Source: a virus
Strand: one strand, 5' to 3'
IMG/VR virus record: IMGVR_UViG_3300029483_000012
Length of the DNA: 50,395 nt
The notes under the pieces are model-generated. The model had not been told where the DNA came from. It made no database searches and saw only the letters and a program-made list of their open reading frames with translations. Made by a program: the position numbers and the translations under genes. Numbering within the stretch: position 1 is the first letter of the stretch; every line of letters starts with the position of its first letter. Shown here piece after piece: positions 1-50,395 of this stretch.

Positions 1-99
1 GTTTACCCCTGCGGAGGACATTGAGGACATCATTGAGTTTGACCCCAATGCCCTTTCCGCTGCGCTGAACTGATAAGGGAGGGAACAAAATATGATTAG
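1..99. repeat. Terminal redundancy copy 1 (identical to 50297-50395). It holds the last 73 nt of the sheath gene, the intergenic RBS and the first 8 nt of the tube gene.
   Basis: Direct comparison: bases 1-99 (gtttacccctgcggaggac...aaaatatgattag) recur exactly at the 3' end of the window. Confidence 0.95.
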
Positions 100-5026: not shown

Positions 5027-6371
5027 AGCAAGAAGCCTGGCGCTGGATGTGCGCTACAACAATGCCCCGTTTGCCGGGCAGGTAGGCGGAGAAATCGAAA
5101 ACCTGACCTATATCGACAGCGCGGCAGACAACAGCGACAGCATTGACATCACGCTGGACGCACAGGATGGAAAGTGGCTGCGGGGCTGGCTACCGGAAAA
5201 GGGCGCGACGCTGCGCCCGCGCATCCGGGGGTACAACTGGGAGGCGCAGGGAGACAGGCGCATCATTGAGTGCGGGTTATTCGTGCTGGATGATGTGAGC
5301 TTTTCTGATGCACCAACCACCTTGCAGATCGGCGGCGTGAGCAAGCCGAGCGACAGCGACTTTTCGGAGCTGGAGCGGGAAACCATTTGGAAAAACACCA
5401 GCATCAAGAGAATTGGAGAGACCATAGCGGGCCGGTATGGGCTGGCGTTCACCTACGATGCAGACGATTATGACATCGAGTGCGACGAGCAGGACGGAAC
5501 GGACAGCGGCTATTACAACCAGCTATGCAAAAACTACGGCCTTATCCTGAAAGTTTACGCCCGGCGGCTGTGGGTGTATGACCGGGAGCGGTACAAGGAA
5601 AAGCGAGCGGTAAAGACTTTCCACCGGACGCAGATCAGGCCGGGCAGTTTTGCATATACCACCACCCTGTCCGGCACATACACCGGCGGGTACTTCAACT
5701 ACACCGACGCGGACAAGGACATCGACATCGTGTGCAGCGTGGGCGGAGGGACACACACAAAGAGCGTGAACCGGAGAGCGACCAGCGTATATGATGCCAG
5801 CGTCCAACTGTGCGCGGAGCTGAACAACGCCAACCACGGCACGGTACGGCTGCGCTTCGGGGTAGATGGGGACTGGCTGGTGAGTGCGGGAAACTGCATC
5901 AATCTGGCCGGGTACGGAAAGCTGGACGGAAAATACTTTGTTGACAAGGTGACGCATAAGGTGAGCGCCAGCGGACTTACCACGGATTTCGAGTGCAGCG
6001 GCATCGGAACTGCGTTCCACTACTGGGATGTGGGCGGGAAGATCGAGTACCACGAGCCGGAGGAGGACAGCGGCGTTGATTACGACAGCGCCTACGCCAC
6101 CACAAGCCCGGCGGCCAATGCGGCCAGCTCGGAGGCGGGAGCCGAAGCGGGGGCGTCGGTGACGCTGACAAATGCGCCTTTCTATGTGGCAAGCACATCG
6201 GCAAGTCCAGCGTGCCACAAGAGCGGAACCTATTATTTCTACGATGGCATCTTAATCAACGGGAGATACCGCATGACCAACACGGCGGCGCGGTGCGGAA
6301 AGCTGCCGGTAGGAAAGAATGTAACCGGATGGGTGCCAGCGAGCTATTGCATCGCGGGAAAGGAGGGATAG
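5019..6371 (+). CDS. Late control D-like tail/baseplate hub protein (P2 gpD / XkdQ-like)
   Basis: 450 aa counted from ATG 5019, which overlaps the stop of the gpX-like gene. The N-terminus MIRARSLALDVRYNNAPFAGQVGGEIENLTYIDSAADNSDSIDITLDAQDG is typical of the family. The upstream part of the 4908 ORF overlaps the previous gene and was discarded. ATG 5007 is an alternative start. Confidence 0.75.
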   Translation: MIRARSLALDVRYNNAPFAGQVGGEIENLTYIDSAADNSDSIDITLDAQDGKWLRGWLPEKGATLRPRIRGYNWEAQGDRRIIECGLFVLDDVSFSDAPTTLQIGGVSKPSDSDFSELERETIWKNTSIKRIGETIAGRYGLAFTYDADDYDIECDEQDGTDSGYYNQLCKNYGLILKVYARRLWVYDRERYKEKRAVKTFHRTQIRPGSFAYTTTLSGTYTGGYFNYTDADKDIDIVCSVGGGTHTKSVNRRATSVYDASVQLCAELNNANHGTVRLRFGVDGDWLVSAGNCINLAGYGKLDGKYFVDKVTHKVSASGLTTDFECSGIGTAFHYWDVGGKIEYHEPEEDSGVDYDSAYATTSPAANAASSEAGAEAGASVTLTNAPFYVASTSASPACHKSGTYYFYDGILINGRYRMTNTAARCGKLPVGKNVTGWVPASYCIAGKEG

Positions 6372-6374
6372 CCG

Positions 6375-7187
6375 GTGGCAAGCACGAACCGCACGGGGCG
6401 CGTGAGCGCCATCGACTATGAGGCGGGCGCCTATGAAGTGACATACTTTGACCGGGGGCAAAGCGTGACGCGGAAGATCAATGCCATCAGCAACGGCGAA
6501 TACAAAATGCCGGTGATCGGCCAGATCGTCAGCGTGGCGCACACCAGCAGCGGCCTTGCGGCGGCCACGACGACGGGAACGGTCTGGAACAAAACAAACC
6601 GCCCAGCGGAGGGCTTCAAGGGGCTTTACCGAAAGGAATACGGCTCCCAAAAGGGACGGGCTTACAGCCGGTATGACGAGAATACGGGCGTGTACACGCA
6701 GTATGTGGACAAGCGCACCGGGCGTACCTGCAACGGAGAAATCTTCGATGAAGCAAAAGGCCCCATCAGCCTGGTGGCGGGCGGGCAGTTCCAGGCCAAA
6801 AGCAGCTCGGCCAGCATCAGCCTGAATGCGAAAACGGGCGTCGGCCTTGTGGCGGGAACATCGGTGAGCATCGAGGCCGGGAGCTTTGTGAGCATCGAGG
6901 CGGCGGGGGAACTGAGCGTGTCCGCCGGAGGAAAGTACACGCTGACGGTGACAAAGGGCGTGGAAGTCGAAGTGTCGGGCGGCGAGGCAAAGATCACGCT
7001 GAACGGAGCGGTAATCACCGTGACAGAGGCGGGGGATGTGACCGTGACCAGTCCGAGCAAAATCAACCTGTCGGCCCCGGAGATCAAAGCGGAGGCATCG
7101 GCGGGCGATATTGTCATACAAGGGAAAAGCCTTGTCAACCACACGCACGAGGACAGCCTGGGCGGCGGGACTACACCGCCAAAGTAA
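6375..7187 (+). CDS. Baseplate central spike protein (gpV / gp5-like OB fold plus beta-helix)
   Basis: GTG start with an AAAGGAGGG RBS. The C-terminal half is made of beta-helical repeats (SISLNAKTGVGLVAGTSVSIEAGSFVSIEAAGELSVSAGG...) and ends with an HTH-E apex motif. Confidence 0.65.
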   Translation: MASTNRTGRVSAIDYEAGAYEVTYFDRGQSVTRKINAISNGEYKMPVIGQIVSVAHTSSGLAAATTTGTVWNKTNRPAEGFKGLYRKEYGSQKGRAYSRYDENTGVYTQYVDKRTGRTCNGEIFDEAKGPISLVAGGQFQAKSSSASISLNAKTGVGLVAGTSVSIEAGSFVSIEAAGELSVSAGGKYTLTVTKGVEVEVSGGEAKITLNGAVITVTEAGDVTVTSPSKINLSAPEIKAEASAGDIVIQGKSLVNHTHEDSLGGGTTPPK

Positions 7188-9763: not shown

Positions 9764-12700
9764 ATGGCCTGGTTAGGCGTAATCACGAACAACGGAAACG
9801 ACCTGCTGACCCGGTGGGTGGAGGGGAAGAACCTGCACATCACCAGAGCGGCGGCGGGGCAAGGGCGAGTGGAGCAGACCGCCATGCTGGCGCAGTCGGC
9901 TCTTGTGAACGAAAAGCAGACGGTGAGCATCGTGTCCAACACACCGGCAGAAAAGGGCCAGAGGCTCAAACTGCAAGTGACGGCACAGGCTGCGGTGGGG
10001 TACAACCTCAACCAGTTCGGCGTATGGGCGAGACTGGACGAGGAAGAAGATCAAATGATCGCCCTGTTCCAGACGGATACGGACATCGGCATTGAAATCC
10101 CGAGCAAGGAGGCCATGCCGGACTTTGTATACACATTCTACGGGCTGCTGGCATTCTCCAACCAGGGAAACCTTACGGTCAAAATTGATGCCGCCGCTGT
10201 GGTGACGGCGGAAACCATGGGACAGGCAATCGCTGAGGTCATGGGTGCCCACGCCGGAGACCGGGAGGCCCACGCGGCCTTGTTCGAGAAAAAGGCGGAT
10301 TTGGGCGCTGACAGAAAAGTGGTGATCGACCAGCTCCCTGTAAACACGCCGAACGGTGTAGCGGGGCTGGACAAGGACGGCAAGGTGAGCGCCACCCAGC
10401 TGCCGGTGAACGCACCGAACGGCATAGCGGGACTTGGCGACGACGGGAAGATTGCGGCGGCGCAGCTCCCCAGCTATGTGGATGATGTGGTGGAGGGCTA
10501 TTACCATGAGGGTGCTTTCTACTCTGACCCGGCCCACCGGGAGCAGATCACCCCGGAAAGCGGCAAGGTCTACATGGATGCGGAAACCAACATCACATAC
10601 CGGTGGAGCGGGCACAGCTATGCGCCCATCGGCTCCGACCTGGCCCTGGGCGAAACGCAGAGTACAGCCTACCGCGGTGATCGAGGCAAGATCGCATACG
10701 ACCACAGCATGACCAAGGAGGGAAACCCCCACGGAACGAAAGCCGCAGACATTGGCTATACCGACAATAAGGGGCTGGGGGCGACCAACTTGCAGGGGGC
10801 TATGGACGCAGCCGCGCAAAAAGCAACCGACGCGCAGAAGTCTGCGGACGCGGCGCTGGAAGCCATCACAAAAATTGGGCACACCATCGACGCTGTGCCC
10901 AGCCAGAACGGAACGCTGACCTATACCGGAAGCGAGCAAAGCCCGACCTGGAACAGCTATAACCCGGAGACCATGACCATGGGCGGCGTGACCAAGGGAA
11001 CGGATGCCGGGTCGTATAACGCCACATTTACCCCGAAGGAGGGGTACACCTGGGGAGACGGAACCAACGAGACAAAAACCGCAGTGTGGAAAATCGGGCG
11101 GGCCACGATCATGGCGGTGCCCAGCCAGTCCGGGGCGCTGGCCTATACCGGAAGCGCACAGACACCGGCCTGGGCCAACTACGAAAGCACAAAGCTGACC
11201 CTGGGCGGAACCACCAGCGGAACCAATGCGGGAAGCTATGAGGCGACCTTTACGCCAAAGGCCAACTACCAGTGGCAGGACGGAAGCACGACCGCAAAGA
11301 CCGCCGTATGGCGCATTGAACGGGCAAAAATCGCAGTGGTGCCCAGCCAGTCCGGGGCACTGACCTATACCGGCGGGGCGCAAAGCCCGAGCTGGAGCAA
11401 CTATGACAGCACAAAGCTGACCCTGGGCGGCACTACCAGCGGAACTGCCGCGGGCAACTACAACGCGACATTTACACCGAAAGAAAACTACCGGTGGCAG
11501 GATGGAAGTGTGACCGCCAAAAATGCGGCGTGGGCCATTCAAAAGGCGGCAGGCACGCTGGCCCTCTCCCCCACCTCCATGACCCTGGACGCCTCTGCCA
11601 AGAGCAAGAGCATCACTGTGACCAAGAACGGCACGGGGGCGGTCTCGGCCACCGCATCGCCCAGCGGCGTGGTGACGGTGAGCGTGAGCGGGAACACGGT
11701 CACGGTGACTGCCGTTAAGGACGGAAACGCCACAGTGACGGTGAATGTGGCGGCGGACGCCAACCACACCGCCCCGAGTGCAAAGACCTGTTCTGTGAAG
11801 GTGGAGATGCCGAACATCTACGGCGTGGAGTGGGACGGCACCAGCACAACGGTGTGGAGCCGGACGGATAAGGCGGCAGGCTTCACGAACCCTGTGCCCT
11901 ATGTGGCCGGGCAGAGCAAGTACGGAAGCCCGTTCGATAACCTGATGCCCTGGAGCGGGATGGTTCGGTCAAGCGACCCCGCAGCGGGCGAGCTGGTGGC
12001 TATCCCGAAATTCTGGTTCAAGTGGACAAAGAGCGGGAGCCGGTTGAAACTCCAGATCGCGGACAAGGCGACGCCGGGTTTCCATGTCTCCCCGGCCCAC
12101 GCAGACCGCGGGGACGGAAAGGGCGAGCGGAACACCGTGTACATTGGCCGGTATCACTGCCACACGAGCAACTGGAAAAGCCAGAGCGGCGGAAAGCCCA
12201 AGGCAGACATCACCCGGAGCGCGGCGCGGAGCGGTATCCACGGCCTGGGCGGCACCATCTGGCAGAGCGACATCCAAATCCGCATGACGATCTGGATGCT
12301 GTACCTGGTGGAGTTCGCAGACTGGAACAGCCAAAAGACCATCGGCAAAGGCTGCGGAGACAACAGTGCCCCCGGCAACATGGGTTATACGGATAGTATG
12401 CCGTACCATACCGGAACTACGCAGAACAGCCGGGACAGCTACGGCCTGGGCACACAGTACCGGAACATTGAGGGTCTTTGGGACAATGTATACGACTGGG
12501 GAGACGGCTGCTACTACAACAGCGCGGGGCTGAACATCATCATGAACCCCAATCAATTCAGCGACACCAGCGGGGGAACCGCCGTGGGCGTACCCACGAG
12601 CGGGTGGCCCAGTGCATTTGCGGTGGCAACGAAAAGCGGTCTGGAGTGGTGCATCTACCCCACGGCGACGGGGGGCAGTGAGACCACCTACTCGTCGGAT

Positions 12701-12847
12701 TACTGGAACTTCGGCGCGTCCTACCCGTGTCTGTGCTTCGGCGGTGGCTATTACCGGAGCGGGGACCGCGGGTTGTTCTTTGTGTACTACAATTCCGTGT
12801 CGAGCGCCGTCGCGGACATCGGCTGCCGCCTCCAAAAACTCCCCTGA
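9764..12847 (+). CDS. Tail fibre / receptor-binding protein; DGR target protein with a C-terminal C-type-lectin-like variable domain
   Basis: 1027 aa. N-terminal tail-collar-like segment, then QLPVN.PNG.AGL..DGK short repeats, 3 x 74-aa Ig-like tandem repeats and a Big_2-like segment (LALSPTSMTLDASAKSKSITV...). The C-terminal domain's last about 46 codons are the VR matching the downstream TR. Confidence 0.9.
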   Translation: MAWLGVITNNGNDLLTRWVEGKNLHITRAAAGQGRVEQTAMLAQSALVNEKQTVSIVSNTPAEKGQRLKLQVTAQAAVGYNLNQFGVWARLDEEEDQMIALFQTDTDIGIEIPSKEAMPDFVYTFYGLLAFSNQGNLTVKIDAAAVVTAETMGQAIAEVMGAHAGDREAHAALFEKKADLGADRKVVIDQLPVNTPNGVAGLDKDGKVSATQLPVNAPNGIAGLGDDGKIAAAQLPSYVDDVVEGYYHEGAFYSDPAHREQITPESGKVYMDAETNITYRWSGHSYAPIGSDLALGETQSTAYRGDRGKIAYDHSMTKEGNPHGTKAADIGYTDNKGLGATNLQGAMDAAAQKATDAQKSADAALEAITKIGHTIDAVPSQNGTLTYTGSEQSPTWNSYNPETMTMGGVTKGTDAGSYNATFTPKEGYTWGDGTNETKTAVWKIGRATIMAVPSQSGALAYTGSAQTPAWANYESTKLTLGGTTSGTNAGSYEATFTPKANYQWQDGSTTAKTAVWRIERAKIAVVPSQSGALTYTGGAQSPSWSNYDSTKLTLGGTTSGTAAGNYNATFTPKENYRWQDGSVTAKNAAWAIQKAAGTLALSPTSMTLDASAKSKSITVTKNGTGAVSATASPSGVVTVSVSGNTVTVTAVKDGNATVTVNVAADANHTAPSAKTCSVKVEMPNIYGVEWDGTSTTVWSRTDKAAGFTNPVPYVAGQSKYGSPFDNLMPWSGMVRSSDPAAGELVAIPKFWFKWTKSGSRLKLQIADKATPGFHVSPAHADRGDGKGERNTVYIGRYHCHTSNWKSQSGGKPKADITRSAARSGIHGLGGTIWQSDIQIRMTIWMLYLVEFADWNSQKTIGKGCGDNSAPGNMGYTDSMPYHTGTTQNSRDSYGLGTQYRNIEGLWDNVYDWGDGCYYNSAGLNIIMNPNQFSDTSGGTAVGVPTSGWPSAFAVATKSGLEWCIYPTATGGSETTYSSDYWNFGASYPCLCFGGGYYRSGDRGLFFVYYNSVSSAVADIGCRLQKLP
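10895..11560 (+). repeat. Three tandem 222-bp (74-aa) Ig-like repeats inside the tail fibre gene
   Basis: Units start at 10895, 11117 and 11339 (VPSQ[NS]G.L.YTG..Q.P.W.NY....T.GG.T.GT.AG.Y.ATFTPK..Y.W.DG...K.A.W.I). Confidence 0.9.
12691..12829 (+). repeat. DGR variable region (VR) at the 3' end of the tail fibre gene
   Basis: 139-nt alignment to 13143-13281 with no gaps. By hand count there are 18 mismatches. 17 of them are positions where the TR has A and the VR has G or T; one is C to T. Confidence 0.9.
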
Positions 12848-12886
12848 CAGGGGAGGGGGTGCAGGGGGACGGGGGCCGCAGCCCCC
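12839..12886 (+). promoter_or_regulatory. GC-rich hairpins just 3' of the VR (candidate DGR target-recognition cruciform)
   Basis: ctcccct-gac-aggggag (12839-12855, spanning the stop codon) and gggggc-cgca-gccccc (12871-12886). No T-run follows either hairpin. Confidence 0.5.
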
Positions 12887-13142
12887 TCCCTCCTGCATAT
12901 CCCCGGCCCGCAGGCCGTCGTCCTCGCGGACTTTACATCGCTTGCCTCGCCGCAACGCGGCAAGGCGCACTCGCGCCGTCGCTCGTCCTCACCCGCCCGA
13001 ACCCGCCGTGCTGGGCTTCGGGCGGGCGGAAAAGAAGCGGACGAGAGACGGAAGATAAGAAACCTTAACGGGTTTTCCGCCGCAAACGCGGCGTGAAAAT
13101 ACAGGGGGAGATCGCGCACGCAGTCGGTGCCTTGGTTTTTGG

Positions 13143-13281
13143 CTCGTCGGATAACTGGAACTTCAACGCGTCCAACCCGTGTCTGCACTTCGGCGGTAAC
13201 TATAACCGGAACGGGAACCACGGGTTGTTCTATGTGAACTACAATTCCGTGTCGAACGCCAACGCGAACATCGGCTGCCGC
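13143..13281 (+). repeat. DGR template region (TR)
   Basis: Non-coding copy of the VR, rich in AAC codons in the VR reading frame (SDNWNFNASNPCLHFGGNYNRNGNHGLFYVNYNSVSNANANIGCR). It lies 280 nt upstream of the RT gene. Confidence 0.9.
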
Positions 13282-13560
13282 GTCCTTTTAGGACTGGCTA
13301 CCCACCTCCATTCCTCGTCGTCACAAGCTGCGGAGCGTGCGCCCCGGCCCACGGGCCAGGGCTTACTTCCTCCGCTGCTCTTCCTCTTCCTTGCAAACCC
13401 GCTGATGCTGGGCTTTGCTCGGATGGGGAGAGGCGAGGGCGTGATCTTCCTCGGCACCCCTTGGTGCAGATTAGCCAACAGGACACGGTTTAGTACACTC
13501 CCGCAACCGGCGGGAGCGGTGGAAAGATCGTGAGGCTAAAAGGAGGAGCAAACATCCTGT
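13282..13560 (+). ncRNA. Putative DGR RNA spacer between the TR and the RT gene
   Basis: No credible ORF is present. The position corresponds to the Sp segment of the BPP-1 DGR RNA. Extent and transcript ends are not determined. Confidence 0.4.
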
Positions 13561-14664
13561 ATGAAACGAGCAAAAGACCTATACCAAAAACTGATTTCAG
13601 ACGAAAATCTCAGGCTGGCAATCCTCACGGTGAACGCTACGCATAAATGGCACCCACACCACAGGCCAAATAAAACGGTGCTGCGGGTGGAGGCGGACAT
13701 CGACGGATATGTGGAGAAGCTGCGGGAGATCATCGTCAACGGATATGATGCGGCCCCACCAAGAATAGCCCGGCGCTGGGACAAGAGCGCCGGAAAATGG
13801 AGGGACATATCAGAGCCGAGATTGTGGCCTGACCAGTATGTTCACCATGCGGTCATTCAAGTTCTGGAACCGGTGCTGATGCGGGGAATGGACAAGTTCT
13901 GCTGCGGAAGTATCAAGGGCCGGGGCATCCATTACGGCGTTAAGGCAATCAAGAAATGGATGCGGACAGACCCGAAAGGGACGAAGTATGCAGAGGAGCT
14001 GGACATCCACCATTTTTACGACAGCCTGACCATTGAAACGGTGATGGCCCGCCTGCGGAGGCTGGTCAAAGACCGGAGGATGCTGGATGTATGTGAGCGG
14101 CTGATGAAGTACGGCGTCCTGATTGGCGCATTCTTCTCACAGTGGTTTGCCAACACGGTGCTGCAACCGCTTGACCAGATGATACGGAACAGCGGGCTGT
14201 GTGACCACTATATGCGGTACATGGACAACCTGACGCTGTTCGGGCGGAACAAAAGGAAACTGCGAAAGCTGCGGGGCATGATCGAGGATTGGCTTGCAGG
14301 CCGCCGGTTGAAGCTAAACAACAAGTGGCAGCTCTATCCGACGGCAAAGCGGACGGTGGCGGCGCTGGGATACCGGTTCGGCCATAAGTTTTCCCTGCTG
14401 CGAAAGCGGAATATGGTGCGGTTGAAAAAGTCGCTATCAGAATGTTATCGGGCCATGCGGAAACACCGGAAGATCAGGCCGAAGCTGGCACAGGGCCTAT
14501 TGTCACGGTTGGGCCAAATGAAGCACTGCAACCATGTACATTTCTTTGAGAAGTATGTGGAAACAGGGCTGCAACGAAAATTGAAGCTCGTGGTAAGAGA
14601 GCATACGAGAAAGGAGCAGGCAAGATGGAATATGTGTACGGAACCGCTGAAATCGACGGCGTGA
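13561..14664 (+). CDS. DGR-type reverse transcriptase
   Basis: 367 aa. RT motifs read by eye: RDISEP...D.YVHHAV, SIKGRGIHYG, LDIHHFYDS, VLIGAFFSQ (the DGR-typical [ILV]GxxxSQ), YMRYMDNLTLFG (YMDN in place of YxDD) and LGYRF. It sits directly after the TR. Confidence 0.9.
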   Translation: MKRAKDLYQKLISDENLRLAILTVNATHKWHPHHRPNKTVLRVEADIDGYVEKLREIIVNGYDAAPPRIARRWDKSAGKWRDISEPRLWPDQYVHHAVIQVLEPVLMRGMDKFCCGSIKGRGIHYGVKAIKKWMRTDPKGTKYAEELDIHHFYDSLTIETVMARLRRLVKDRRMLDVCERLMKYGVLIGAFFSQWFANTVLQPLDQMIRNSGLCDHYMRYMDNLTLFGRNKRKLRKLRGMIEDWLAGRRLKLNNKWQLYPTAKRTVAALGYRFGHKFSLLRKRNMVRLKKSLSECYRAMRKHRKIRPKLAQGLLSRLGQMKHCNHVHFFEKYVETGLQRKLKLVVREHTRKEQARWNMCTEPLKSTA

Positions 14665-15269
14665 TGCGGGAAAACCTGAAAGTCATTGGCGGCCCGAAGC
14701 TGGAGGAGGGGGAGTACCTGACCACGGTTCGGGAGTACGACGACAACACGATCACCGACCGGTGCCGCATCGACCGGCACTATCTGACGGCGGAGGACGA
14801 GGACGGGACGAAGTACGACTTCTATGCCATCAGCGAGCATTACCGCTACATCGACCGTACCAAGATGCTGGATGAAACCAAGGCGGCGACAGAGATCGCC
14901 TTTGTCGCCCTGGCCGAGACCGGCGGCATCGACGGGACGACTGCCGGGGAACACAAAAATCTGTTTGAGGAATGGCAGGCGGGGGTCTCCTACAAAGTGG
15001 GCCAGTACAGGCGCTATGGAGAGAAGCTGTACTGGTGCGTACAGCAGCACACCTCGCAGGCGGGATGGGAGCCGGACAAGGCGGCAAGTCTGTGGTCTGT
15101 GGCCGCTGACCCTGCGGAGGAGTGGCCGGAATGGAGCCAGCCGCTTGGAGCGCATGACGCCTACGCCAAGGGGGCAAAGGTGTCGCACAACGGGAAGCAC
15201 TGGGTCAGTGATGTGGATGCGAATGTGTGGGAACCCGGCGTCAGCGGATGGTCGGAGGCGAAAGAATGA
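14625..15269 (+). CDS. Tail-fibre-associated protein with two C-terminal carbohydrate-binding (chitin-binding type 3 / CBM5_12-like) repeats
   Basis: 214 aa. Repeats are YKVGQYRRYGEKLYWCVQQHTSQAGWEPDKAASLW and YAKGAKVSHNGKHWVSDVDANVWEPGVSGW. AAAGGAG RBS. Confidence 0.55.
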   Translation: MEYVYGTAEIDGVMRENLKVIGGPKLEEGEYLTTVREYDDNTITDRCRIDRHYLTAEDEDGTKYDFYAISEHYRYIDRTKMLDETKAATEIAFVALAETGGIDGTTAGEHKNLFEEWQAGVSYKVGQYRRYGEKLYWCVQQHTSQAGWEPDKAASLWSVAADPAEEWPEWSQPLGAHDAYAKGAKVSHNGKHWVSDVDANVWEPGVSGWSEAKE

Positions 15270-17975: not shown

Positions 17976-19357
17976 ATTATACACGCAACAGTGAAAATAA
18001 CTATTGCGGAACGGGAAAATATTGGGTATCATAAGGGTGTAAAATGCGACAAAACAAGACAAGCGGAACGGAACCGGGAAACCGGAAACCGCCCGCAGGG
18101 ATGCACGGAAGGAGGTATTACAGTGCAGGCCAAGGAGCGCACATTTAAGCACCTGACAAAGAACGACAGGCTGAGAATGGAACGGTGGCTGAACAAAGGG
18201 ATGAAGCCGAGAGAGATTGCAGATAAGCTGCGCGTCCACATCTCCACCGTCTACCGGGAATTGAAGCGGGGAGAATATGAGCGGCTGGATGGGGACACCT
18301 GGGAGATGGTGACGGCGTACAGCCCGGACATCGCAGAGGAGCGGTATCAAAATCACTTACGGGAAAAAGGGCCAGACTTGAAGATTGGAGCAGATCACGA
18401 ATTGGCCCGATACATCGAGGAGACGATCATCGCCAACGATTGCAGCCCTGCCGCTGTACTGGGGTATGCAAAGATGGAGGGCCGGACATTCAAGACCTCT
18501 GTTTCCGTAGCAACCATTTACAGCTATATCAAAAAAGGGATATTCCTGCGTATCACACAGGTGGATTTGCCGCGGCGCGGGAAGAAAAAGCAGGGGTACA
18601 AAAAGGTAAAGACAAGGAAAGACCAGGCCAGGGCATCTGCCGGTGAGAGCATCGAACGCAGACCGGAGAGAGTAAAGAACCGGGAGGAGTTTGGGCACTG
18701 GGAAATGGATACGGTGTACAATAAAAAGGATAGTACCAGCAAGGCGCTTCTGGTACTGACCGAGAGAAAGACCCGGCGGGAGATCATCATACTGATACCG
18801 AACCGCAAAGCGGAGACCATTGTTAAAGCATTGGACGCACTGGAGCGGAAAATCGGAGCAGTGAATTTCAGGAAGATTTTTAGAACGATTACGGTTGATA
18901 ACGGCTCTGAGTTCTCGGCGGCGGAGGAGATGGAGCGCAGCGCTGTCAACAAGACCATCCCCCGGACAAAGGTTTATTTCTGCCACCCCTATTCATCGTG
19001 GGAGCGCGGGAGCAACGAAAACGCCAACATTATGATTAGGCGGAAACACCCCAAGGGAACCGACTTTGAAAAGGTGAGCGCAAGACAGATCGCCGAGACC
19101 GAACAATGGATAAACAACTACCCCCGGAAGATACTGGGGTATATAAGTAGCGAAGTGGCTTTCCGGGCCTGCTTGCGGGAGATAGGGCTATCGGCGTAGG
19201 CCGGATGGGACGCATGGGAGAAAGGGGGAAACTGGAGGGGGCATGAGGAACATAATAAGGAAAAGCGGAGGCTGCCGACCAAGGGAATTGACGGCGGCCA
19301 TATTGTCATGTTAAAATTAGACAAAATAAAAGGTGAAAATTTGTGCGCAATAAATGC
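17976..19357 (+). mobile_element. IS30-family element (boundaries approximate; inverted repeats not resolved by eye)
   Basis: The segment contains a complete IS30-type DDE transposase gene and looks more AT-rich than the flanks. It is bounded by the lysis terminator on one side and the early promoter on the other. Confidence 0.6.
18123..19199 (+). CDS. IS30-family DDE transposase
   Basis: 358 aa counted from GTG 18123 (GGAAGGAGG RBS). N-terminal HTH (REIADKLRVHISTVYRELKRG). DDE triad contexts GHWEMDTV, ITVDNGSEF and WERGSNENANIMIRR. Confidence 0.9.
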   Translation: MQAKERTFKHLTKNDRLRMERWLNKGMKPREIADKLRVHISTVYRELKRGEYERLDGDTWEMVTAYSPDIAEERYQNHLREKGPDLKIGADHELARYIEETIIANDCSPAAVLGYAKMEGRTFKTSVSVATIYSYIKKGIFLRITQVDLPRRGKKKQGYKKVKTRKDQARASAGESIERRPERVKNREEFGHWEMDTVYNKKDSTSKALLVLTERKTRREIIILIPNRKAETIVKALDALERKIGAVNFRKIFRTITVDNGSEFSAAEEMERSAVNKTIPRTKVYFCHPYSSWERGSNENANIMIRRKHPKGTDFEKVSARQIAETEQWINNYPRKILGYISSEVAFRACLREIGLSA

Positions 19358-22485: not shown

Positions 22486-23498
22486 ATGAACGAGGCAATT
22501 CATATCAGCAGCAGACAATTCCAGTATATCGCCCGTATCAGCCACGGAAAAGACAGCATGAAAATGCTGGATGTGATCGTGTTGCGTGGATTGCCTCTGG
22601 ACAGGATAACGACAACGGATATATGGGCAACTGACACTATCCGGGGCGAACACCCGAAGATGGTCGAGTTTAAGGATATGGCGGATGAATATATCTGGCG
22701 TAAATATCGCATCGAAGTTGAACACCTATGCGCTATGCGCAACGGGGAGAAGGTAACTTACGAAAAACTGTTTTACCATACACCGAAGCGCAAGATTGCG
22801 GGGGGGCACTGGTCAGCAGATAACTCCGAAAACGCGGGGGGGGGGGACAAGAAACAAGGAACAATCCTTGGTTTCCCAACCCTGTGGGGGCCGTGGTGCC
22901 AGTCAGACCTCAAACGAGTGGCAAGAAAACCGCATCCAGGGTTTTCCTGCACAAATCGGGAGCTGGTGCAAGAAACTCAAAATCGACTATATCCGGCTTC
23001 CCGGTCAGCGTTACCCGAAAAGGCCAGTGGTGCCAAAAACTCAAAACCAGATTTTCGGGAAGCCCCGCCACGAGGGGCGGTAAAAATATCGTGGAATACA
23101 TCGGTATTGCGGCAGATGAACCAAAGCGATTTGGGCAACTGAGCGAGCGCAAGCGTGCGCCGCTGGTGGAGTTTGGAATAGAGGAGGGGCTTTGCGGCCT
23201 GTACTGCCAGTACGAGGGTATCTTGGCACCGAGCTATGAAACAAGTTGCCGGGATGGGTGCTGGATGTGCCACAACCAAGGCGTTGACCAGCTCCGGCAA
23301 CTGCGGCGGGACTATCCAGAACTGTGGGCTTTGTTGCTGAAATGGGATGCGGATAGTCCAGTGAACTTTAAGCCAGATGGCCGGACAGTCCGTGACTATG
23401 ACGAGCGGTTTAGTCTGGAGGATGAAGGGTTTATCCATACGGACAAACGGTTTTTCTGGAGGATGCTGGACGAGCCGTTGCAAATGAGATTGTTTTAG
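22486..23498 (+). CDS. PAPS-reductase-family (PP-loop ATPase) protein, reading frame interrupted at a poly-G tract
   Basis: The N-terminal part carries the PP-loop SHGKDS (frame of 22486; this ORF ends at 23142). The C-terminal part (IVEYIGIAADEPKRF...CWMCHNQGVDQLRQLRRDYPELW) is in the frame of 22884-23498. One extra G in the G11 tract would fuse the two parts. Confidence 0.65.
22800..22806 (+). repeat. Homopolymeric G7 tract inside the PAPS-reductase-like gene
   Basis: Read directly from the sequence. Confidence 0.95.
22836..22846 (+). repeat. Homopolymeric G11 tract inside the PAPS-reductase-like gene (candidate slippage / phase-variation site)
   Basis: Read directly from the sequence. 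It lies just upstream of the point where the three frames diverge. Confidence 0.95.
22870..23045 (+). repeat. Three tandem diverged copies of the GFP-x(4-9)-WC-x2-LK module, each in a different reading frame
   Basis: GFPTLWGPWCQSDLK (22870-22914), GFPAQIGSWCKKLK (22940-22981) and GFPVSVTRKGQWCQKLK (22995-23045). The starts are spaced 70 and 55 nt apart, both 3n+1. Confidence 0.85.
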
Positions 23499-33928: not shown

Positions 33929-34039
33929 GGTGGAAACCTCCCTGTTTTGGATTTGGGTTTTGGCCCATGAGCGCCCCCGCCCTGGTGGGAGCGGGGCCGG
34001 GCTTGCACCGGCGGCGCGTTTTGCGTCGGCCTTGCGGGT

Positions 34040-34201
34040 TTACAGTTTGAGAAGCCGCCGGGCGGTGTCCTCGTCGATGTAGTTTGACCATCCGGCGCGG
34101 TGAAGCTCCTCGGCGGCTTGGGAAAGGGTAATCGTGCCGTTCTGGACATCCTCGCGCAGACTATCCAGAATATTTTTGATGGGGAACGGCTCTTTGCGCA
34201 T
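34040..34201 (-). CDS. Small hypothetical protein (53 aa)
   Basis: MRKEPFPIKNILDSLREDVQNGTITLSQAAEELHRAGWSNYIDEDTARRLLKL with an AAGGAG RBS. Below the ORF-track size cutoff. Confidence 0.5.
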   Translation of the reverse strand: MRKEPFPIKNILDSLREDVQNGTITLSQAAEELHRAGWSNYIDEDTARRLLKL

Positions 34202-34243
34202 GGTATCAGCTCCTTTTTGGGTTTTGTGGTTTGGCCCTGTGGC

Positions 34244-34289
34244 CTGGGGCCGGGTCGCTTTGTCCGGTGCGGCCCGCTAAGGTGTCCGG
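34244..34289. repeat. Intergenic repeat, copy A
   Basis: ctggggccgggtcgctttgtccggtgcggcccgctaaggtgtccgg. It differs from copy B at 1 of 46 positions by eye. Confidence 0.9.
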
Positions 34290-34298
34290 GGGGTGTGG

Positions 34299-34742
34299 TC
34301 AGTCAAGACAGGTTTCAAAGCTCATGCGGTACTGCTCTTTGAGCTTGTCATAGGCGCGGCGGGTGACGGTGTATGTGCTGCGCTGCTCGTCGTAGGATAT
34401 ACCGCGCCCGCGGAGCTGCGGGAGATCGTCGCGGAGCGGACGGAGATAATAATGCTTGCCGTAGTATGAAAGACTGGCGGAAAAGTCGCAGCCCGTCGGG
34501 GCCTTTTGCATTTCGTAGCAATAGGAATATTCACCGGGTTTGTCTGCGTGAACGGCGGGGGACTTTGCCGCCTCCAGTGCTTCATAGTCGGGAGCGTGGC
34601 CGAAAAGCTCACCTGTTTCGATGTCGTAGCGGGCAACGGTAAACTCTGGGACAAAAAGCGTTGTCTGCTCGTTGATCTGCTGGGCGTAGCCGCCGGGGAC
34701 GGGGGTAAAAGTGCCGTTGATTTTGCGCTCGATTGCTGCCAT
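34299..34742 (-). CDS. Hypothetical protein
   Basis: 147 aa with a GAGGAGG RBS. Confidence 0.65.
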   Translation of the reverse strand: MAAIERKINGTFTPVPGGYAQQINEQTTLFVPEFTVARYDIETGELFGHAPDYEALEAAKSPAVHADKPGEYSYCYEMQKAPTGCDFSASLSYYGKHYYLRPLRDDLPQLRGRGISYDEQRSTYTVTRRAYDKLKEQYRMSFETCLD

Positions 34743-34763
34743 GGTGAAAACCTCCTCGTTTTG

Positions 34764-34970
34764 TTAAATAACGCCGCCGTCAGCAGTGACAATGCAGACG
34801 CCACCGCCGCCGGTGATATACTCGTTTCCGCCCTCGTCGGAGTAGTGCTTGCAACCACTGTGTTTCATTTCGCCGGTGAAGCCGTCACGGGTGTATTCCC
34901 ACTCTGGGCGGCGGGTCAATCTGCCGACGATCTCAAAGCCGACGCTTTTTGCGTATTCTCGAATTTTCAT
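34764..34970 (-). CDS. Hypothetical protein
   Basis: 68 aa counted from the ATG at 34970 (MKIREYAKSVGFEIVG...) with a GGAGG 8 nt upstream. Confidence 0.55.
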   Translation of the reverse strand: MKIREYAKSVGFEIVGRLTRRPEWEYTRDGFTGEMKHSGCKHYSDEGGNEYITGGGGVCIVTADGGVI

Positions 34971-35065
34971 TTTGTGCGCCTCCATTTTGTTTCTGGCCTG
35001 CCATCATCAGCGCCGGGCGGCCATTCCCGGCGGACGGCCACAGCGGGCCGTTTCGGCGTTGTGCG

Positions 35066-35950
35066 TCAGGCGACGCGGACATAATAGGCGGATTTTTTGT
35101 TGCTCCACTTGGCCCCGGCGGCCTTGATCGCGTCGGCGTGGCGCTCGGTGTCTCCGGCCAGCCACACCACCGGCGCGGCGGTCTGTGCGCCCTTGATGGT
35201 AGTGGTGACGCCTGCCAGATCGGCAAAGCGGGCGGCAATCAGTTCGGCGGCGGTTTTGGGTTCGGGCTGCTCGGCGGCGGGCGCGGCCTGCTGGGCTTCC
35301 AGCTCGGCAATTTTGTTAGTGGCCCGGTTAAGATCGCCGCGCACGGCGGAAAGCTCGTCTTGTGCCTGGGCCAGCTCGGCGCGGAGTTTGTCGGCCTCGG
35401 CGGTGGCGTCGTTGTCGCACTCGGCAAAGTATGCCTTGACGGCCCGGGCGGCCTTGGGTTCGGGCTTGATCGGCAGAACCAGGGCCAGGGGTTCATCACC
35501 CACATAGGCGACGGCGGCGGAGATCGCGCCGGTGGCCCGGAGCGTTGCGGATGGGGTGAGCGCCGCAATAAATTTTGCGTTGTAGAACGACGCCACACCG
35601 GCGGCGGGGTTGTAGTAACTGGCGGCGGGGGCCTTGCCTGCCTGGAGGGTCAGGGGGCAGCGCTCCAGGGCGGGGGCGTTGGCGGTCTGCTCCACGGTCT
35701 CGTTAAACAGCTTGACCAGATCAAAGCCGTTATCCGCGGCCTTTTCGCCGTTCTGCATGGTGTAGTTACCGGCTTCGCAGCAGGTCACGGGCTGGACGAT
35801 GGCGGCATACTCCGGGGAGTTCATCTTGTAGGCGATAAAGCCGTTGGTAACATAGATCGCGCCGTCGTCGGTCACGCGGCAGATAATGCGCTCGGAGCCT
35901 TTCAGAGCCTTTGCGGCCTCGTTGGTGTAGTTGCCCATGTACTTTTTCAT
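35066..35950 (-). CDS. Hypothetical protein with a coiled-coil linker and a C-terminal ...IKAAGAKWS.....AYYV module shared with the DUF3560-like protein
   Basis: 294 aa with a GGAGG RBS. C-terminal sequence VVWLAGDTERHADAIKAAGAKWSNKKSAYYVRVA. Confidence 0.6.
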   Translation of the reverse strand: MKKYMGNYTNEAAKALKGSERIICRVTDDGAIYVTNGFIAYKMNSPEYAAIVQPVTCCEAGNYTMQNGEKAADNGFDLVKLFNETVEQTANAPALERCPLTLQAGKAPAASYYNPAAGVASFYNAKFIAALTPSATLRATGAISAAVAYVGDEPLALVLPIKPEPKAARAVKAYFAECDNDATAEADKLRAELAQAQDELSAVRGDLNRATNKIAELEAQQAAPAAEQPEPKTAAELIAARFADLAGVTTTIKGAQTAAPVVWLAGDTERHADAIKAAGAKWSNKKSAYYVRVA

Positions 35951-36000
35951 GCTGATAACCTCCAGATCATCTGTTTTTTCTTGTGTGGCCCGGTGTCGGG

Positions 36001-36046
36001 CTGGGGTCGGGTCGCTTTGTCCGGTGCGGCCCGCTAAGGTGTCCGG
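36001..36046. repeat. Intergenic repeat, copy B
   Basis: ctggggtcgggtcgctttgtccggtgcggcccgctaaggtgtccgg, directly after the stop of the 36055 gene. Confidence 0.9.
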
Positions 36047-39130: not shown

Positions 39131-39249
39131 AAAATTTTGGGAGTTAGCAACTTTCGCAGGTTTTCTGTGTTAATATCATAGTGTGCAATAAAGCCCGTGG
39201 CGGAAACGCTGCGGGCTTTGCCGTTGGATGCGCCCTGCGCAAGCCGAAG

Positions 39250-39276
39250 CCCTGCGTACCTACGCGGGGTATTTTT
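39250..39276 (+). terminator. Rho-independent terminator downstream of the lipoprotein gene
   Basis: ccctgcgta / tacgcgggg stem followed by TATTTTT. An additional hairpin lies at 39190-39219. Confidence 0.55.
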
Positions 39277-39316
39277 GTAGGCTGCGCCGGGGCGCACGAT
39301 TATTTGGAGGTGTGAA

Positions 39317-50369: not shown

Positions 50370-50395
50370 TAAGGGAGGGAACAAAATATGATTAG
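50297..50395. repeat. Terminal redundancy copy 2 (identical to 1-99). Either a circular-assembly overlap or a direct terminal repeat.
   Basis: Exact 99-nt match to the window start. The unique genome length is therefore 50296 bp. Confidence 0.95.

What the first reader, a model, noticed from the sequence alone, without database searches (positions are those of the whole stretch)
12691..14664. Diversity-generating retroelement diversifying the tail-fibre tip
The last about 46 codons of the 1027-aa tail fibre (VR, 12691-12829) align without gaps to a non-coding copy 452 nt downstream (TR, 13143-13281). A reverse transcriptase gene carrying the DGR-typical IGAFFSQ motif follows the TR. By hand count, 17 of the 18 mismatches are TR adenines replaced by G or T in the VR. 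They fall mostly in AAC codons (the TR frame reads NWNFNASN...GNYNRNGNH...NANAN). This is the signature of adenine-specific mutagenic retrohoming onto a C-type-lectin-like receptor-binding domain. It is the main accessory system that can be proven directly from the sequence.
Basis: partly seen in the sequence, partly recalled or inferred. Interest (0 to 1): 0.7.

Follow-up and report, generated by a model that had tools for sequence, protein, structure and literature searches.

The report
Active Avd-less DGR on phage tail fibre
A gut phage carries a working diversity-generating retroelement that keeps rewriting the tip of its tail fibre; this is a known kind of system, but it has no Avd helper protein, a variant reverse-transcriptase active site (YMDN) and a conserved RNA motif (RT-18).

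Summary
VR 12691-12829 and TR 13143-13281 align without gaps, with 18 mismatches, 17 of them at TR adenines (Fisher p=7e-12). None of the 33 TR adenines is at codon position 3.

The DGR interpretation is supported:
- The RT (13561-14664) matches Bordetella phage bRT best and has the IGxxxSQ motif.
- The fibre C-terminus models as a C-type-lectin fold; its best match is the DGR variable protein TaqVP.
- Five near-identical phage genomes share an identical TR, but their VRs differ at 33 columns, 30 of them TR adenines.
- One relative's private TR changes are copied into its own VR.

The element therefore appears to have been active recently.

Departures from the BPP-1 prototype:
- No Avd gene was found in the complete 50.3-kb genome. 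Avd-less architecture is already catalogued.
- The catalytic motif is YMDN, not YMDD. This is conserved across the clade and under purifying selection.
- The Rfam RT-18 RNA lies between TR and RT in 30 of 30 sources scanned.
- A covarying duplex brackets the TR.
- A>C changes are nearly absent in this lineage (unexplained).

Verdict: a new member of a known kind, of moderate interest.

The parts
9764..12847 (+). Target gene: 1027-aa tail fibre, located directly after the P2-like baseplate genes (Baseplate_J, Tail_P2_I)
   Evidence: ORF. PHROG tail-fibre and tail-protein families, plus a weak Pfam Phage_tail_fib N-terminal hit. Neighbouring genes.
11996..12844 (+). C-terminal receptor-binding domain (residues 745-1027), predicted C-type-lectin (CLec) fold of DGR variable proteins
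   Evidence: AlphaFold2 model with mean pLDDT 87.6 and pTM 0.89. Foldseek best hits are TaqVP 5vf4 (E 7e-7, prob 1.00), then Mtd 1yu2, formylglycine-generating enzymes and TvpA 2y3c. There is no Pfam or PDB sequence hit.
12691..12829 (+). Variable repeat (VR): the last about 46 codons of the fibre; mutated positions span 12701-12815
   Evidence: The VR differs among 5 loci that share an identical TR, at 33 columns of which 30 are TR adenines.
12816..12833 (+). IMH-like 3' end of the VR (ACATCGGCTGCCGCCTCC). It carries a fixed C at 12830 where the TR has G (the IMH versus IMH* difference).
   Evidence: all VRs keep C and all TRs keep G at this column. Its function is inferred from BPP-1 (PMC3240598; PMC5758913 section 18).
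12839..12855 (+). GC-rich hairpin (7-bp stem, 3-nt loop) 5 nt downstream of the VR/TR homology; the analogue of the BPP-1 target-site hairpin/cruciform
   Evidence: A GC-rich hairpin is found at the same place in all lineages, with a different sequence in the L037 group. Its function is inferred.
12860..12897 (+). Second, longer GC-rich hairpin after the fibre stop codon (possible terminator; no T-run)
   Evidence: Sequence and folds. Not tested further.
12918..13066 (+). Extra segment of about 131-149 nt in the VR-TR spacer. It is present in the window and L054 and absent from L001, L004, L005 and L006. It appears dispensable.
   Evidence: the VR-TR gap is 309 nt in the first group and 178 nt in the second.
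13073..13099 (+). Conserved hairpin upstream of the TR (11 bp with one bulge)
   Evidence: helix 1: 100% of cells paired, with one compensatory pair (C-G to A-U in 8 of 14 sequences).
13104..13117 (+). 5' strand of a long-range duplex that brackets the TR (GGGGGAGAUCGCGC)
   Evidence: It pairs with 13439-13452, two pairs show compensatory changes, and the distant lineages L036 and L037 have different but complementary sequences at the same place.
13120..13129 (+). Motif GCAGNCGNTG just upstream of the TR, with 8 of 10 positions invariant across all 19 sequences aligned (RT identity 48-100%). Its role is unknown.
   Evidence: invariant columns.
13143..13285 (+). Template repeat (TR), non-coding; includes IMH* at 13268-13285. 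It has 33 adenines within 13143-13281 and 12 AAC codons in the VR frame.
   Evidence: It is 100% identical in the window, L001, L004, L005 and L054. The ORF that covers it (13093-13533) has no family hit, a low coding score, and is broken by a 100-nt indel in relatives.
13439..13452 (+). 3' strand of the TR-bracketing duplex (GCGUGAUCUUCCUC), immediately 5' of RT-18
13455..13545 (+). RT-18 RNA motif (Rfam RF03021) in the TR-RT spacer, ending in the Shine-Dalgarno sequence of the RT
   Evidence: 78.2 bits against a gathering score of 41.3. RT-18 is found at the same place in 12 of 12 related loci. In 17 further Avd-less relatives it is found in 16, and RT-17 in the other.
13561..14664 (+). DGR reverse transcriptase, 367 aa. 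Motif 4 is LIGAFFSQ. Motif A is E146-L-D148. Motif C is Y-M-D222-N223 (Asn where bRT has D216).
   Evidence: dN/dS is 0.08-0.14 against relatives.

Best explanation
This is a functional diversity-generating retroelement in a roughly 50.3-kb myovirus-like phage of gut Oscillospiraceae. A transcript that spans the TR and its flanks (upstream hairpin, TR-bracketing duplex, RT-18 RNA) is copied by the adjacent RT into cDNA, with misincorporation opposite template adenines. The cDNA replaces the homologous VR at the 3' end of the tail-fibre gene. Replacement is directed by the IMH-like GC-rich end of the VR and by the hairpin just downstream. Because the adenines sit at positions 1 and 2 of 12 AAC and a few other codons, each round re-draws about 20 residues on the ligand-binding face of a C-type-lectin-fold tip without creating stop codons, and so changes receptor specificity. 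Shown here: the A-specific VR/TR pattern, TR-to-VR information flow, VR turnover between near-identical genomes, the RT's family, the CLec fold, and the conserved RNA elements. Inferred by analogy with BPP-1: RNA-primed cDNA synthesis, IMH- and hairpin-directed homing, and a scaffolding role for RT-18. The system works without an Avd gene and with a YMDN catalytic motif.
For: A-specific mismatches: 17 of 18 in the window (p=7e-12), and 507/1224 A sites against 35/3557 non-A sites over 34 related pairs. Turnover: five loci with 95-98% identical flanks and an identical TR have VRs only 87-89% identical, differing at 33 columns of which 30 are TR adenines, and 30 of the 33 TR adenines are hit. 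TR-to-VR transfer: the four private TR substitutions of L006 are all mirrored in its own VR. RT: the best PDB match is bRT 8ub7 (E 2e-16, against GsI-IIC at 3e-11 and retron RTs at 1e-5 or weaker); the chain's D138/D215/D216 numbering matches the bRT paper. The IGxxxSQ motif is present. dN/dS is 0.08-0.14. Target: CLec fold with best hit the DGR variable protein TaqVP. Thirty-six homologous loci keep the same cassette, with RT identity from 46% to 100%. RT-18 RNA is present in 12 of 12 plus 16 of 17 loci. The TR-bracketing duplex and the upstream hairpin covary (96.9% paired against 40-55% in slid controls; 0 of 500 shuffles reach the observed score). A GC-rich hairpin follows the VR in all lineages.
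Against: No Avd was detected in the whole genome, and bRT needs Avd in vitro. The second catalytic Asp of YxDD is Asn. No sigma-70-like promoter was found upstream of the TR. No read-level data are available, so 'active now in this very genome' is inferred from differences between assemblies. The priming site and the role of RT-18 are untested. A crude energy test did not generalise the bracketing duplex across the wider clade. Each VR carries an occasional non-A mismatch, such as C>T at 12734.
Confidence: 0.93

Rival explanations
1. Fossil DGR. The cassette was once active, but the YMDN substitution or the loss of Avd has killed it, and the VR/TR differences are historical.
For: D216 of bRT is one of three catalytic aspartates and it is Asn here. 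No Avd was found. One relative, L067, does carry a frameshifted RT yet still shows 22 A-type mismatches, so a dead cassette can look like this.
Against: YMDN is conserved in 117 of 120 homologues down to 55% identity. The RT is under purifying selection (dN/dS about 0.1). VRs differ between genomes that are 95-98% identical around the cassette and have identical TRs. An independent E/YMDN lineage also shows A-specific VR/TR divergence in more than 40 loci. DD-type sister lineages are equally Avd-less and equally diversified.
Confidence: 0.04
2. The DGR is functional but depends on a helper supplied in trans: an Avd or another accessory protein encoded by the host chromosome or by another prophage.
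For: bRT requires Avd for cDNA synthesis (PMC6182149 and PMC7826257, listed). Pfam's Avd model could miss divergent members. Only the phage genome could be scanned here.
Against: No hit in 65 called genes plus gap ORFs. The whole clade (more than 150 loci) leaves only 60-320 nt between VR and TR. Wu et al. found no remote avd in genomes whose DGRs lack it, and proposed Avd-independent homing (PMC5758913). A conserved structured RNA (RT-18) occupies the position where BPP-1 RNA binds bRT-Avd.
Confidence: 0.1
3. Not a DGR. An ordinary segmental duplication of the gene's 3' end happens to lie next to an unrelated RT (group II intron, retron or defence RT).
For: NCBIfam's best-scoring model is group II intron RT/maturase (74 bits).
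Against: That score is far below the model's cut-off of 300, and the retron and DRT models are also below cut-off. No group II intron or retron RNA family was found by Rfam. The mismatch spectrum is incompatible with neutral divergence (p=7e-12 in the window and about 1e-289 pooled). The TR is invariant while the VR varies.
Confidence: 0.01

Closest known systems
Bordetella phage BPP-1 DGR (mtd-avd-TR-brt), the prototype
   Same: The target is a phage tail-fibre tip with a CLec fold. The VR lies at the 3' end of the gene and the TR lies upstream of the RT. Adenine-specific mutagenesis acts on AAC codons. There is a GC-rich IMH-like end and a hairpin after the VR. A structured spacer RNA lies between TR and RT (RT-10 in BPP-1, PMC5737381), and sequences upstream and downstream of the TR pair with each other (the 'cPRT stop' duplex, bioRxiv 10.1101/2023.10.23.563531). 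The RT carries IGxxxSQ, and bRT is its best solved homologue.
   Different: There is no avd gene. The spacer RNA is RT-18, not RT-10. Motif C is YMDN and motif A is E-x-D, where bRT has YMDD and K-x-D. The observed spectrum is A>G 68%, A>T 32% and A>C 0.4% in this lineage, whereas bRT misincorporates G opposite A at about 12%. RT identity is low.
Avd-less DGRs: 'Architecture A' (target-TR-RT) and the avd-lacking Lineage 3 of Wu et al. 2018 (PMC5758913)
   Same: The order is target gene, then TR, then RT, with no accessory gene. The target is a C-terminal CLec-type VR. Firmicutes/gut phage setting. Wu et al. already inferred an Avd-independent variant of mutagenic retrohoming.
   Different: I could not place this RT in their tree, so membership of Lineage 3 in particular is untested. 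That survey does not mention the YMDN motif, RT-18 or the TR-bracketing duplex.
Thermus aquaticus TaqVP (PDB 5VF4) and other DGR variable proteins (Mtd 1YU2, TvpA 2Y3C)
   Same: They are the best structural matches to the modelled fibre C-terminus, and in all of them the VR forms the C-terminal part of a CLec fold.
   Different: Sequence identity is only 11-15%. Here the domain is fused to a 744-residue phage fibre shaft with three 74-aa Ig-like repeats (D2).
RT genes of cultured Firmicutes phages: Lactobacillus phage LBR48, Butyrivibrio phages Arawn and Idris, Faecalibacterium phage FP_Epona
   Same: They are the closest RTs in deposited, annotated phage genomes.
   Different: Identity is only 29-33%. 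There is no nucleotide-level match to any deposited phage. The closest record, at 50%, is an unannotated faecal contig.

Membership tests
Diversity-generating retroelement (DGR) | TR/VR near-repeat whose differences are confined to TR adenines | tested here: met
   17 of 18 mismatches are at TR-A (p=6.7e-12). Pooled over 34 pairs: 507/1224 A sites against 35/3557 non-A sites.
Diversity-generating retroelement (DGR) | RT of the DGR clade, with the [I/V/L]GxxxSQ signature in motif 4 | tested here: met
   LIGAFFSQ is present. The best solved homologue is bRT 8ub7. Scores are below cut-off for the group II, retron and DRT models. One sister group reads IGAFFSA.
Diversity-generating retroelement (DGR) | Canonical RT catalytic triad (motif A Asp plus YxDD) | tested here: not met
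   Motif C reads YMDN: Asn stands at the bRT D216 position. The motif is conserved across the clade (117 of 120). It also occurs in 26 of 111 more distant representatives. The loci nevertheless show A-mutagenesis.
Diversity-generating retroelement (DGR) | Unidirectional TR-to-VR transfer, with an invariant TR and a variable VR | tested here: met
   The TR is identical in 5 loci whose VRs differ at 33 columns. The private TR substitutions of L006 are mirrored in its own VR.
Diversity-generating retroelement (DGR) | IMH/IMH* at the 3' end of the repeats, and a GC-rich inverted repeat downstream of the VR | tested here: met
   There is a fixed C/G difference at 12830/13282 in a GC-rich block. A hairpin lies at 12839-12855 and is conserved in position across lineages. 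Its function is not testable here.
Diversity-generating retroelement (DGR) | Accessory variability determinant (Avd), present in about 74% of DGRs | tested here: not met
   No PF05635 or other Avd-like hit was found in the called genes and gap ORFs of the complete genome (the fibre, RT and neighbouring ORFs were scanned). The VR-TR gap of 295 nt is non-coding. Avd is not universal (PMC5758913).
Diversity-generating retroelement (DGR) | Variable protein with a CLec (or Ig) fold that displays the VR | tested here: met
   Model pLDDT is 87.6. Foldseek hits are TaqVP (prob 1.00), Mtd, FGE and TvpA.
Diversity-generating retroelement (DGR) | Structured RNA flanking the TR that supports self-primed cDNA synthesis | tested here: inconclusive
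   RT-18 lies in the TR-RT spacer in the window, in 12 of 12 related loci and in 16 of 17 further relatives. A covarying duplex brackets the TR. Priming itself cannot be tested with these tools, and the duplex was not generalised by a crude energy test.
Group II intron RT/maturase | Score at or above the TIGR04416 cut-off, and flanking intron RNA domains | tested here: not met
   74 bits against a cut-off of 300. No group II intron RNA family was found by Rfam.
Retron | Retron-type RT with an adjacent msr/msd RNA | tested here: not met
   The retron St85 model scores 39 bits against a cut-off of 235. PDB retron RTs score E of 1e-5 or weaker, against 2e-16 for bRT. No retron RNA family was found.

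The most novel reading that the evidence does not exclude
The window belongs to a large, gut-dominated clade of DGRs that work without Avd. In this reading, a conserved RNA module takes over the scaffolding role: RT-18 or RT-17, together with a duplex that brackets the TR. Within the clade the RT active site has been re-wired repeatedly, with motif C D-D changing to D-N strictly together with motif A K-x-D changing to E-x-D. This implies a contact between the two positions and a catalytically competent 'YxDN' reverse transcriptase. The window's own lineage has additionally lost A>C outcomes, which would restrict each AAC codon to 9 amino acids.
Probability: 0.45. Interest if true: 0.6.

Novelty: new member of a known kind. 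Interest (0 to 1): 0.4.

Why it matters
DGRs on phage tail fibres are textbook examples, and Avd-less cassettes are already catalogued, so the core finding is ordinary. What it adds is a well-documented natural example showing that an Avd-less cassette with a YMDN-type RT is active in the human gut. It also gives a functional home (DGR spacer RNA) to the orphan Rfam motif RT-18. It reveals a strict K/DD versus E/DN coupling in the RT active site that could be tested by mutagenesis. Finally, the cassette is compact (about 2 kb, a single protein), which may be attractive for DGR-based directed-evolution tools that currently need bRT plus Avd.

Tried and rejected
1. I supposed that the DN motif explains the near-absence of A>C. 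This is rejected. DD-type relatives have 17% A>C, but an independent E/YMDN lineage has 15% (73 of 496). The depletion is therefore lineage-specific and remains unexplained.

2. Avd search. Pfam was run on the called genes plus gap ORFs, joined into pseudo-proteins, and found no hit. The 'Serglycin' hits there are artefacts of my GS linkers.

3. The ORFs overlapping the VR-TR spacer and the TR (12727-13068 and 13093-13533) have no family hit, a low coding score, and are broken by indels in relatives. I rejected them as genes.

4. Generalising the TR-bracketing duplex to 168 loci with a duplex-energy z-score gave a median z of -0.58, which is not supportive. The claim is therefore limited to the window's lineage.

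5. GGUGCC/GGCACC pairing between the region upstream of the TR and RT-18 P1 is not conserved in distant lineages. Rejected.

6. The similarity between the two extra spacer inserts (12918-13066 and about 13312-13425) is weak: roughly 65 nt at about 60% identity. Not pursued.

7. The downstream CBM5/12 gene as a DGR accessory. It always overlaps the RT stop by about 37 nt in this phage family, but gene order is conserved across the whole phage family, so this cannot separate a partner from a neighbour. It is not detected in the 48%-identity group.

8. Searches that found nothing: megablast against deposited phages; a sigma-70 promoter scan; literature searches for YMDN, 8UB7 and RT-18 with DGR; viral-contig scans with P0331, P0292, P0346 and P0297. 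Alignment A4 was too divergent to search with.

Full report
OBSERVATION. Window 12691-12829 (the last 46 codons of the 1027-aa ORF 9764-12847) aligns without gaps to 13143-13281, 452 nt downstream. There are 18 mismatches. Seventeen are TR adenines replaced by G (11) or T (6) in the VR, and one is C>T at 12734. The TR has 33 adenines, of which 17 are changed, against 1 of 106 other bases (Fisher p=6.7e-12). None of the 33 adenines lies at codon position 3, and 12 codons are AAC. The homology continues to 12833/13285 with a single C/G difference at 12830/13282. No other copy exists on either strand of the window.

WHAT IT IS.

Reverse transcriptase. The ORF after the TR (13561-14664, 367 aa) is an RVT_1 reverse transcriptase. 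[quoted passage not shown] The chain's numbering (D138, D215, D216) matches the catalytic aspartates given for Bordetella phage bRT in bioRxiv 10.1101/2023.10.23.563531, so that chain is bRT. NCBIfam's group II, retron and DRT models all score far below their cut-offs. The DGR signature [I/V/L]GxxxSQ is present as LIGAFFSQ.

Target domain. The fibre's C-terminal 283 residues have no Pfam or PDB sequence match. An AlphaFold2 model built on 57 homologues (pLDDT 87.6) matches the DGR variable protein TaqVP (5VF4; E 7e-7, probability 1.00), followed by Mtd, formylglycine-generating enzymes and TvpA. This is the C-type-lectin fold of DGR targets.

Genome and host. The window is a complete circular phage genome of 50,296 bp with a 99-nt terminal repeat. 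It encodes lambda-type terminase and portal, a capsid protein, a tail tube and a P2-like baseplate, and the fibre follows the baseplate genes. Related RT loci are found in MAGs labelled Oscillospiraceae, Acutalibacter and Clostridia.

IS IT ACTIVE? I fetched 68 related loci. Thirty-six of them show a VR/TR pair with A-biased mismatches, at RT identities from 46% to 100%.

Five loci (window, L001, L004, L005, L054) share a 100% identical TR and have flanks 94-99% identical, but their VRs are only 87-89% identical. These VRs differ at 33 columns, 30 of which are TR adenines, and 30 of the 33 TR adenines are hit in at least one VR.

L006 carries four private substitutions in its TR, and all four appear in its own VR. 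This shows that information flows from TR to VR.

Pooled over 34 unique pairs, 41% of TR-A sites are changed, against 1% of other sites. The RT is under purifying selection, with dN/dS of 0.08-0.14.

HOW IT DEPARTS FROM THE PROTOTYPE.

(i) No Avd. The 295 nt between the fibre stop and the TR are non-coding and GC-rich, and they contain hairpins. A Pfam scan of the called genes and gap ORFs of the whole genome found no Avd-family hit. This architecture is already known: Wu et al. 2018 report 29% of DGRs without accessory genes and an avd-less Lineage 3, and they infer Avd-independent homing (PMC5758913). In more than 150 relatives the VR-TR gap is only 60-320 nt.

(ii) Catalytic motif. Motif C reads YMDN, with Asn at the position of bRT D216. 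This is not a lesion. It is conserved in 117 of 120 homologues down to 55% identity. A 48%-identical sister group reads QMDN and IGAFFSA and still shows A-mutagenesis. Among 111 representatives at 28-57% identity, 26 have xxDN. The residue two before the motif A aspartate tracks it strictly: Lys with DD in 69 of 69 cases, Glu with DN in 17 of 17, and Gln with either. The metagenome loci add no exception: E with DN 61 times and K with DD 11 times, including a K/YMDD locus (L270) whose RT is as close to the query as its E/YMDN neighbours. On a rough neighbour-joining tree the state changes at least six times. I found no paper that describes this, although the searchable library is incomplete.

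(iii) RNA. Rfam places RT-18 (RF03021, 78 bits) at 13455-13545, ending in the RT's Shine-Dalgarno sequence. RT-18 is found at the same place in 12 of 12 related loci. In 17 further Avd-less relatives of both DD and DN type it is found in 16, and RT-17 in the other. Weinberg et al. 2017 assigned only RT-10 to a DGR (the BPP-1 TR-RT spacer) and speculated that other RT motifs serve other DGRs (PMC5737381). RT-18 fits that prediction.

Upstream of the TR, a hairpin (13073-13099) and the segment 13104-13117 are conserved. That segment pairs with 13439-13452, immediately 5' of RT-18, and so brackets the TR. On 14 sequences, 96.9% of cells are paired against 40-55% when the partners are slid, three pairs carry compensatory changes, and no shuffle out of 500 reaches the observed covariation score. 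The distant lineages L036 and L037 have different but complementary sequences at the same position. This resembles the duplex formed by sequences upstream and downstream of the TR in the bRT-Avd-RNA structure. A crude energy test over 168 loci did not generalise it, so I claim it only for this lineage.

(iv) Target-site signals. The GC-rich 3' end of the VR, with its fixed C/G difference from the TR, and a 7-bp hairpin 5 nt downstream (12839-12855) occupy the positions of IMH and the cruciform of BPP-1. A hairpin is present there in every lineage.

(v) Spectrum. In this lineage A>C is almost absent: A>G 344, A>T 161 and A>C 2. bRT-Avd misincorporates G opposite A at about 12% (PMC7826257). DD-type relatives show 17% A>C. 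I suspected the DN motif, but an independent E/YMDN lineage shows 15% A>C, so that idea is refuted. The deficit is specific to the window's lineage and its QMDN sister group and is unexplained. It could be an RT property or selection on the fibre tip. If it is mutational, each AAC codon reaches 9 amino acids instead of 15, and the theoretical repertoire falls from about 10^19.5 to 10^15.7.

MECHANISM.

Shown:
- Adenine-specific, unidirectional TR-to-VR rewriting of a CLec tail-fibre tip, by a cassette consisting of the TR, flanking structured RNA and one RT.

Inferred from BPP-1:
- The RNA self-primes cDNA synthesis on the RT.
- The bracketing duplex limits the template.
- IMH and the hairpin direct cDNA integration.

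Open:
- The priming nucleotide.
- The promoter (none was found).
- Whether a host factor replaces Avd.
- How an active site with Asn at the second motif C position and Glu near motif A binds its metals.

COMPARISON AND VERDICT. The element is a member of the DGR family in the Avd-less target-TR-RT architecture. Two features of the canonical definition were tested and not met: Avd and YxDD. Neither is universal or required for the phenotype seen here. The closest RTs in deposited, annotated phage genomes reach only 29-33% identity (LBR48, Butyrivibrio phages, FP_Epona), and there is no nucleotide match to deposited phages. I rate it a new member of a known kind, of moderate interest. The side observations give specialists concrete experiments: the YxDN/E-x-D coupling, RT-18 as the spacer RNA of an Avd-less clade, and the lineage-specific loss of A>C.

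Noticed in passing
window 33958-36046 (- strand) and 39229-39296 (+): Four self-cleaving-ribozyme matches lie within 2.1 kb, between small ORFs on the minus strand: twister-sister 33958-34042, RAGATH-5 34238-34289 and 35995-36046, and Hammerhead_II 34992-35058. There is also a DUF3800-VIII RNA at 39229-39296. All score above Rfam gathering thresholds.
   Followed up: no
RT residues 146 and 223 (window 13996-13998 and 14227-14229); P0241-P0390; L069-L331: There is a strict coupling between the residue two before the motif A Asp and the last residue of motif C. Lys goes with D-D (69 of 69) and Glu goes with D-N (17 of 17), with at least 6 switches on a rough tree and no exception in 72 further metagenome loci.
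   Followed up: partly
VR/TR pairs of window, L001-L068: A>C substitutions are nearly absent in this lineage and its QMDN sister group: 2 of 507 by the trimmed count, or 3 of 545 by the pipeline count. DD-type relatives show 17%, and an independent YMDN lineage shows 15%. The cause is unknown.
   Followed up: partly
window 12918-13066 and about 13312-13411: There are two extra non-coding segments. The first, of about 131-149 nt, lies in the VR-TR spacer and is shared only with L054. The second, of about 100 nt, lies in the TR-RT spacer and is shared with the 99-100%-identity group but absent from the 80-87% group. They show weak mutual similarity.
   Followed up: partly
window 14625-15269: A 214-aa protein with a CBM_5_12 domain starts 40 nt before the RT stop codon, in another reading frame. 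The overlap is conserved in all loci of this phage family. Three homologue clusters (P0018, P0020, P0024) are called as 569-aa RT-CBM fusions.
   Followed up: partly
window 17991-19199: An IS30-like transposase (rve core plus HTH_38) sits directly after the lysis cassette, inside the phage genome.
   Followed up: no
window 22486-23498: A roughly 1-kb stretch has no confidently called gene. It holds two overlapping + strand ORFs of 218 and 204 aa in different frames, with no Pfam hit. This may be a frameshifted or interrupted gene.
   Followed up: no
window 1-99 and 50297-50395: There is an exact 99-nt terminal direct repeat, so the window is a circularly closed assembly of 50,296 bp. The gene ending at 50369 (probably the tail sheath) and the tail-tube gene at the start are adjacent across the junction.
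   Followed up: yes
L067 (AP018533.1, Clostridiales bacterium CCNA10, complete genome) 6001-7031: The RT of this prophage copy is frameshifted after about residue 90, yet its VR/TR pair still shows 22 A-type mismatches. It is an example of a recently inactivated cassette.
   Followed up: no
L060 (NZ_JAWHPN010000082.1, Collinsella aerofaciens HTF-129, 622-nt contig): A 622-nt contig in an actinobacterial isolate assembly encodes a 99%-identical fragment of this RT. This is probably contamination and not a host signal.
   Followed up: no
window 10886-11551: The fibre shaft contains three tandem 222-nt (74-aa) repeats at 73-78% identity, with a weak He_PIG/Ig-like hit.
   Followed up: no
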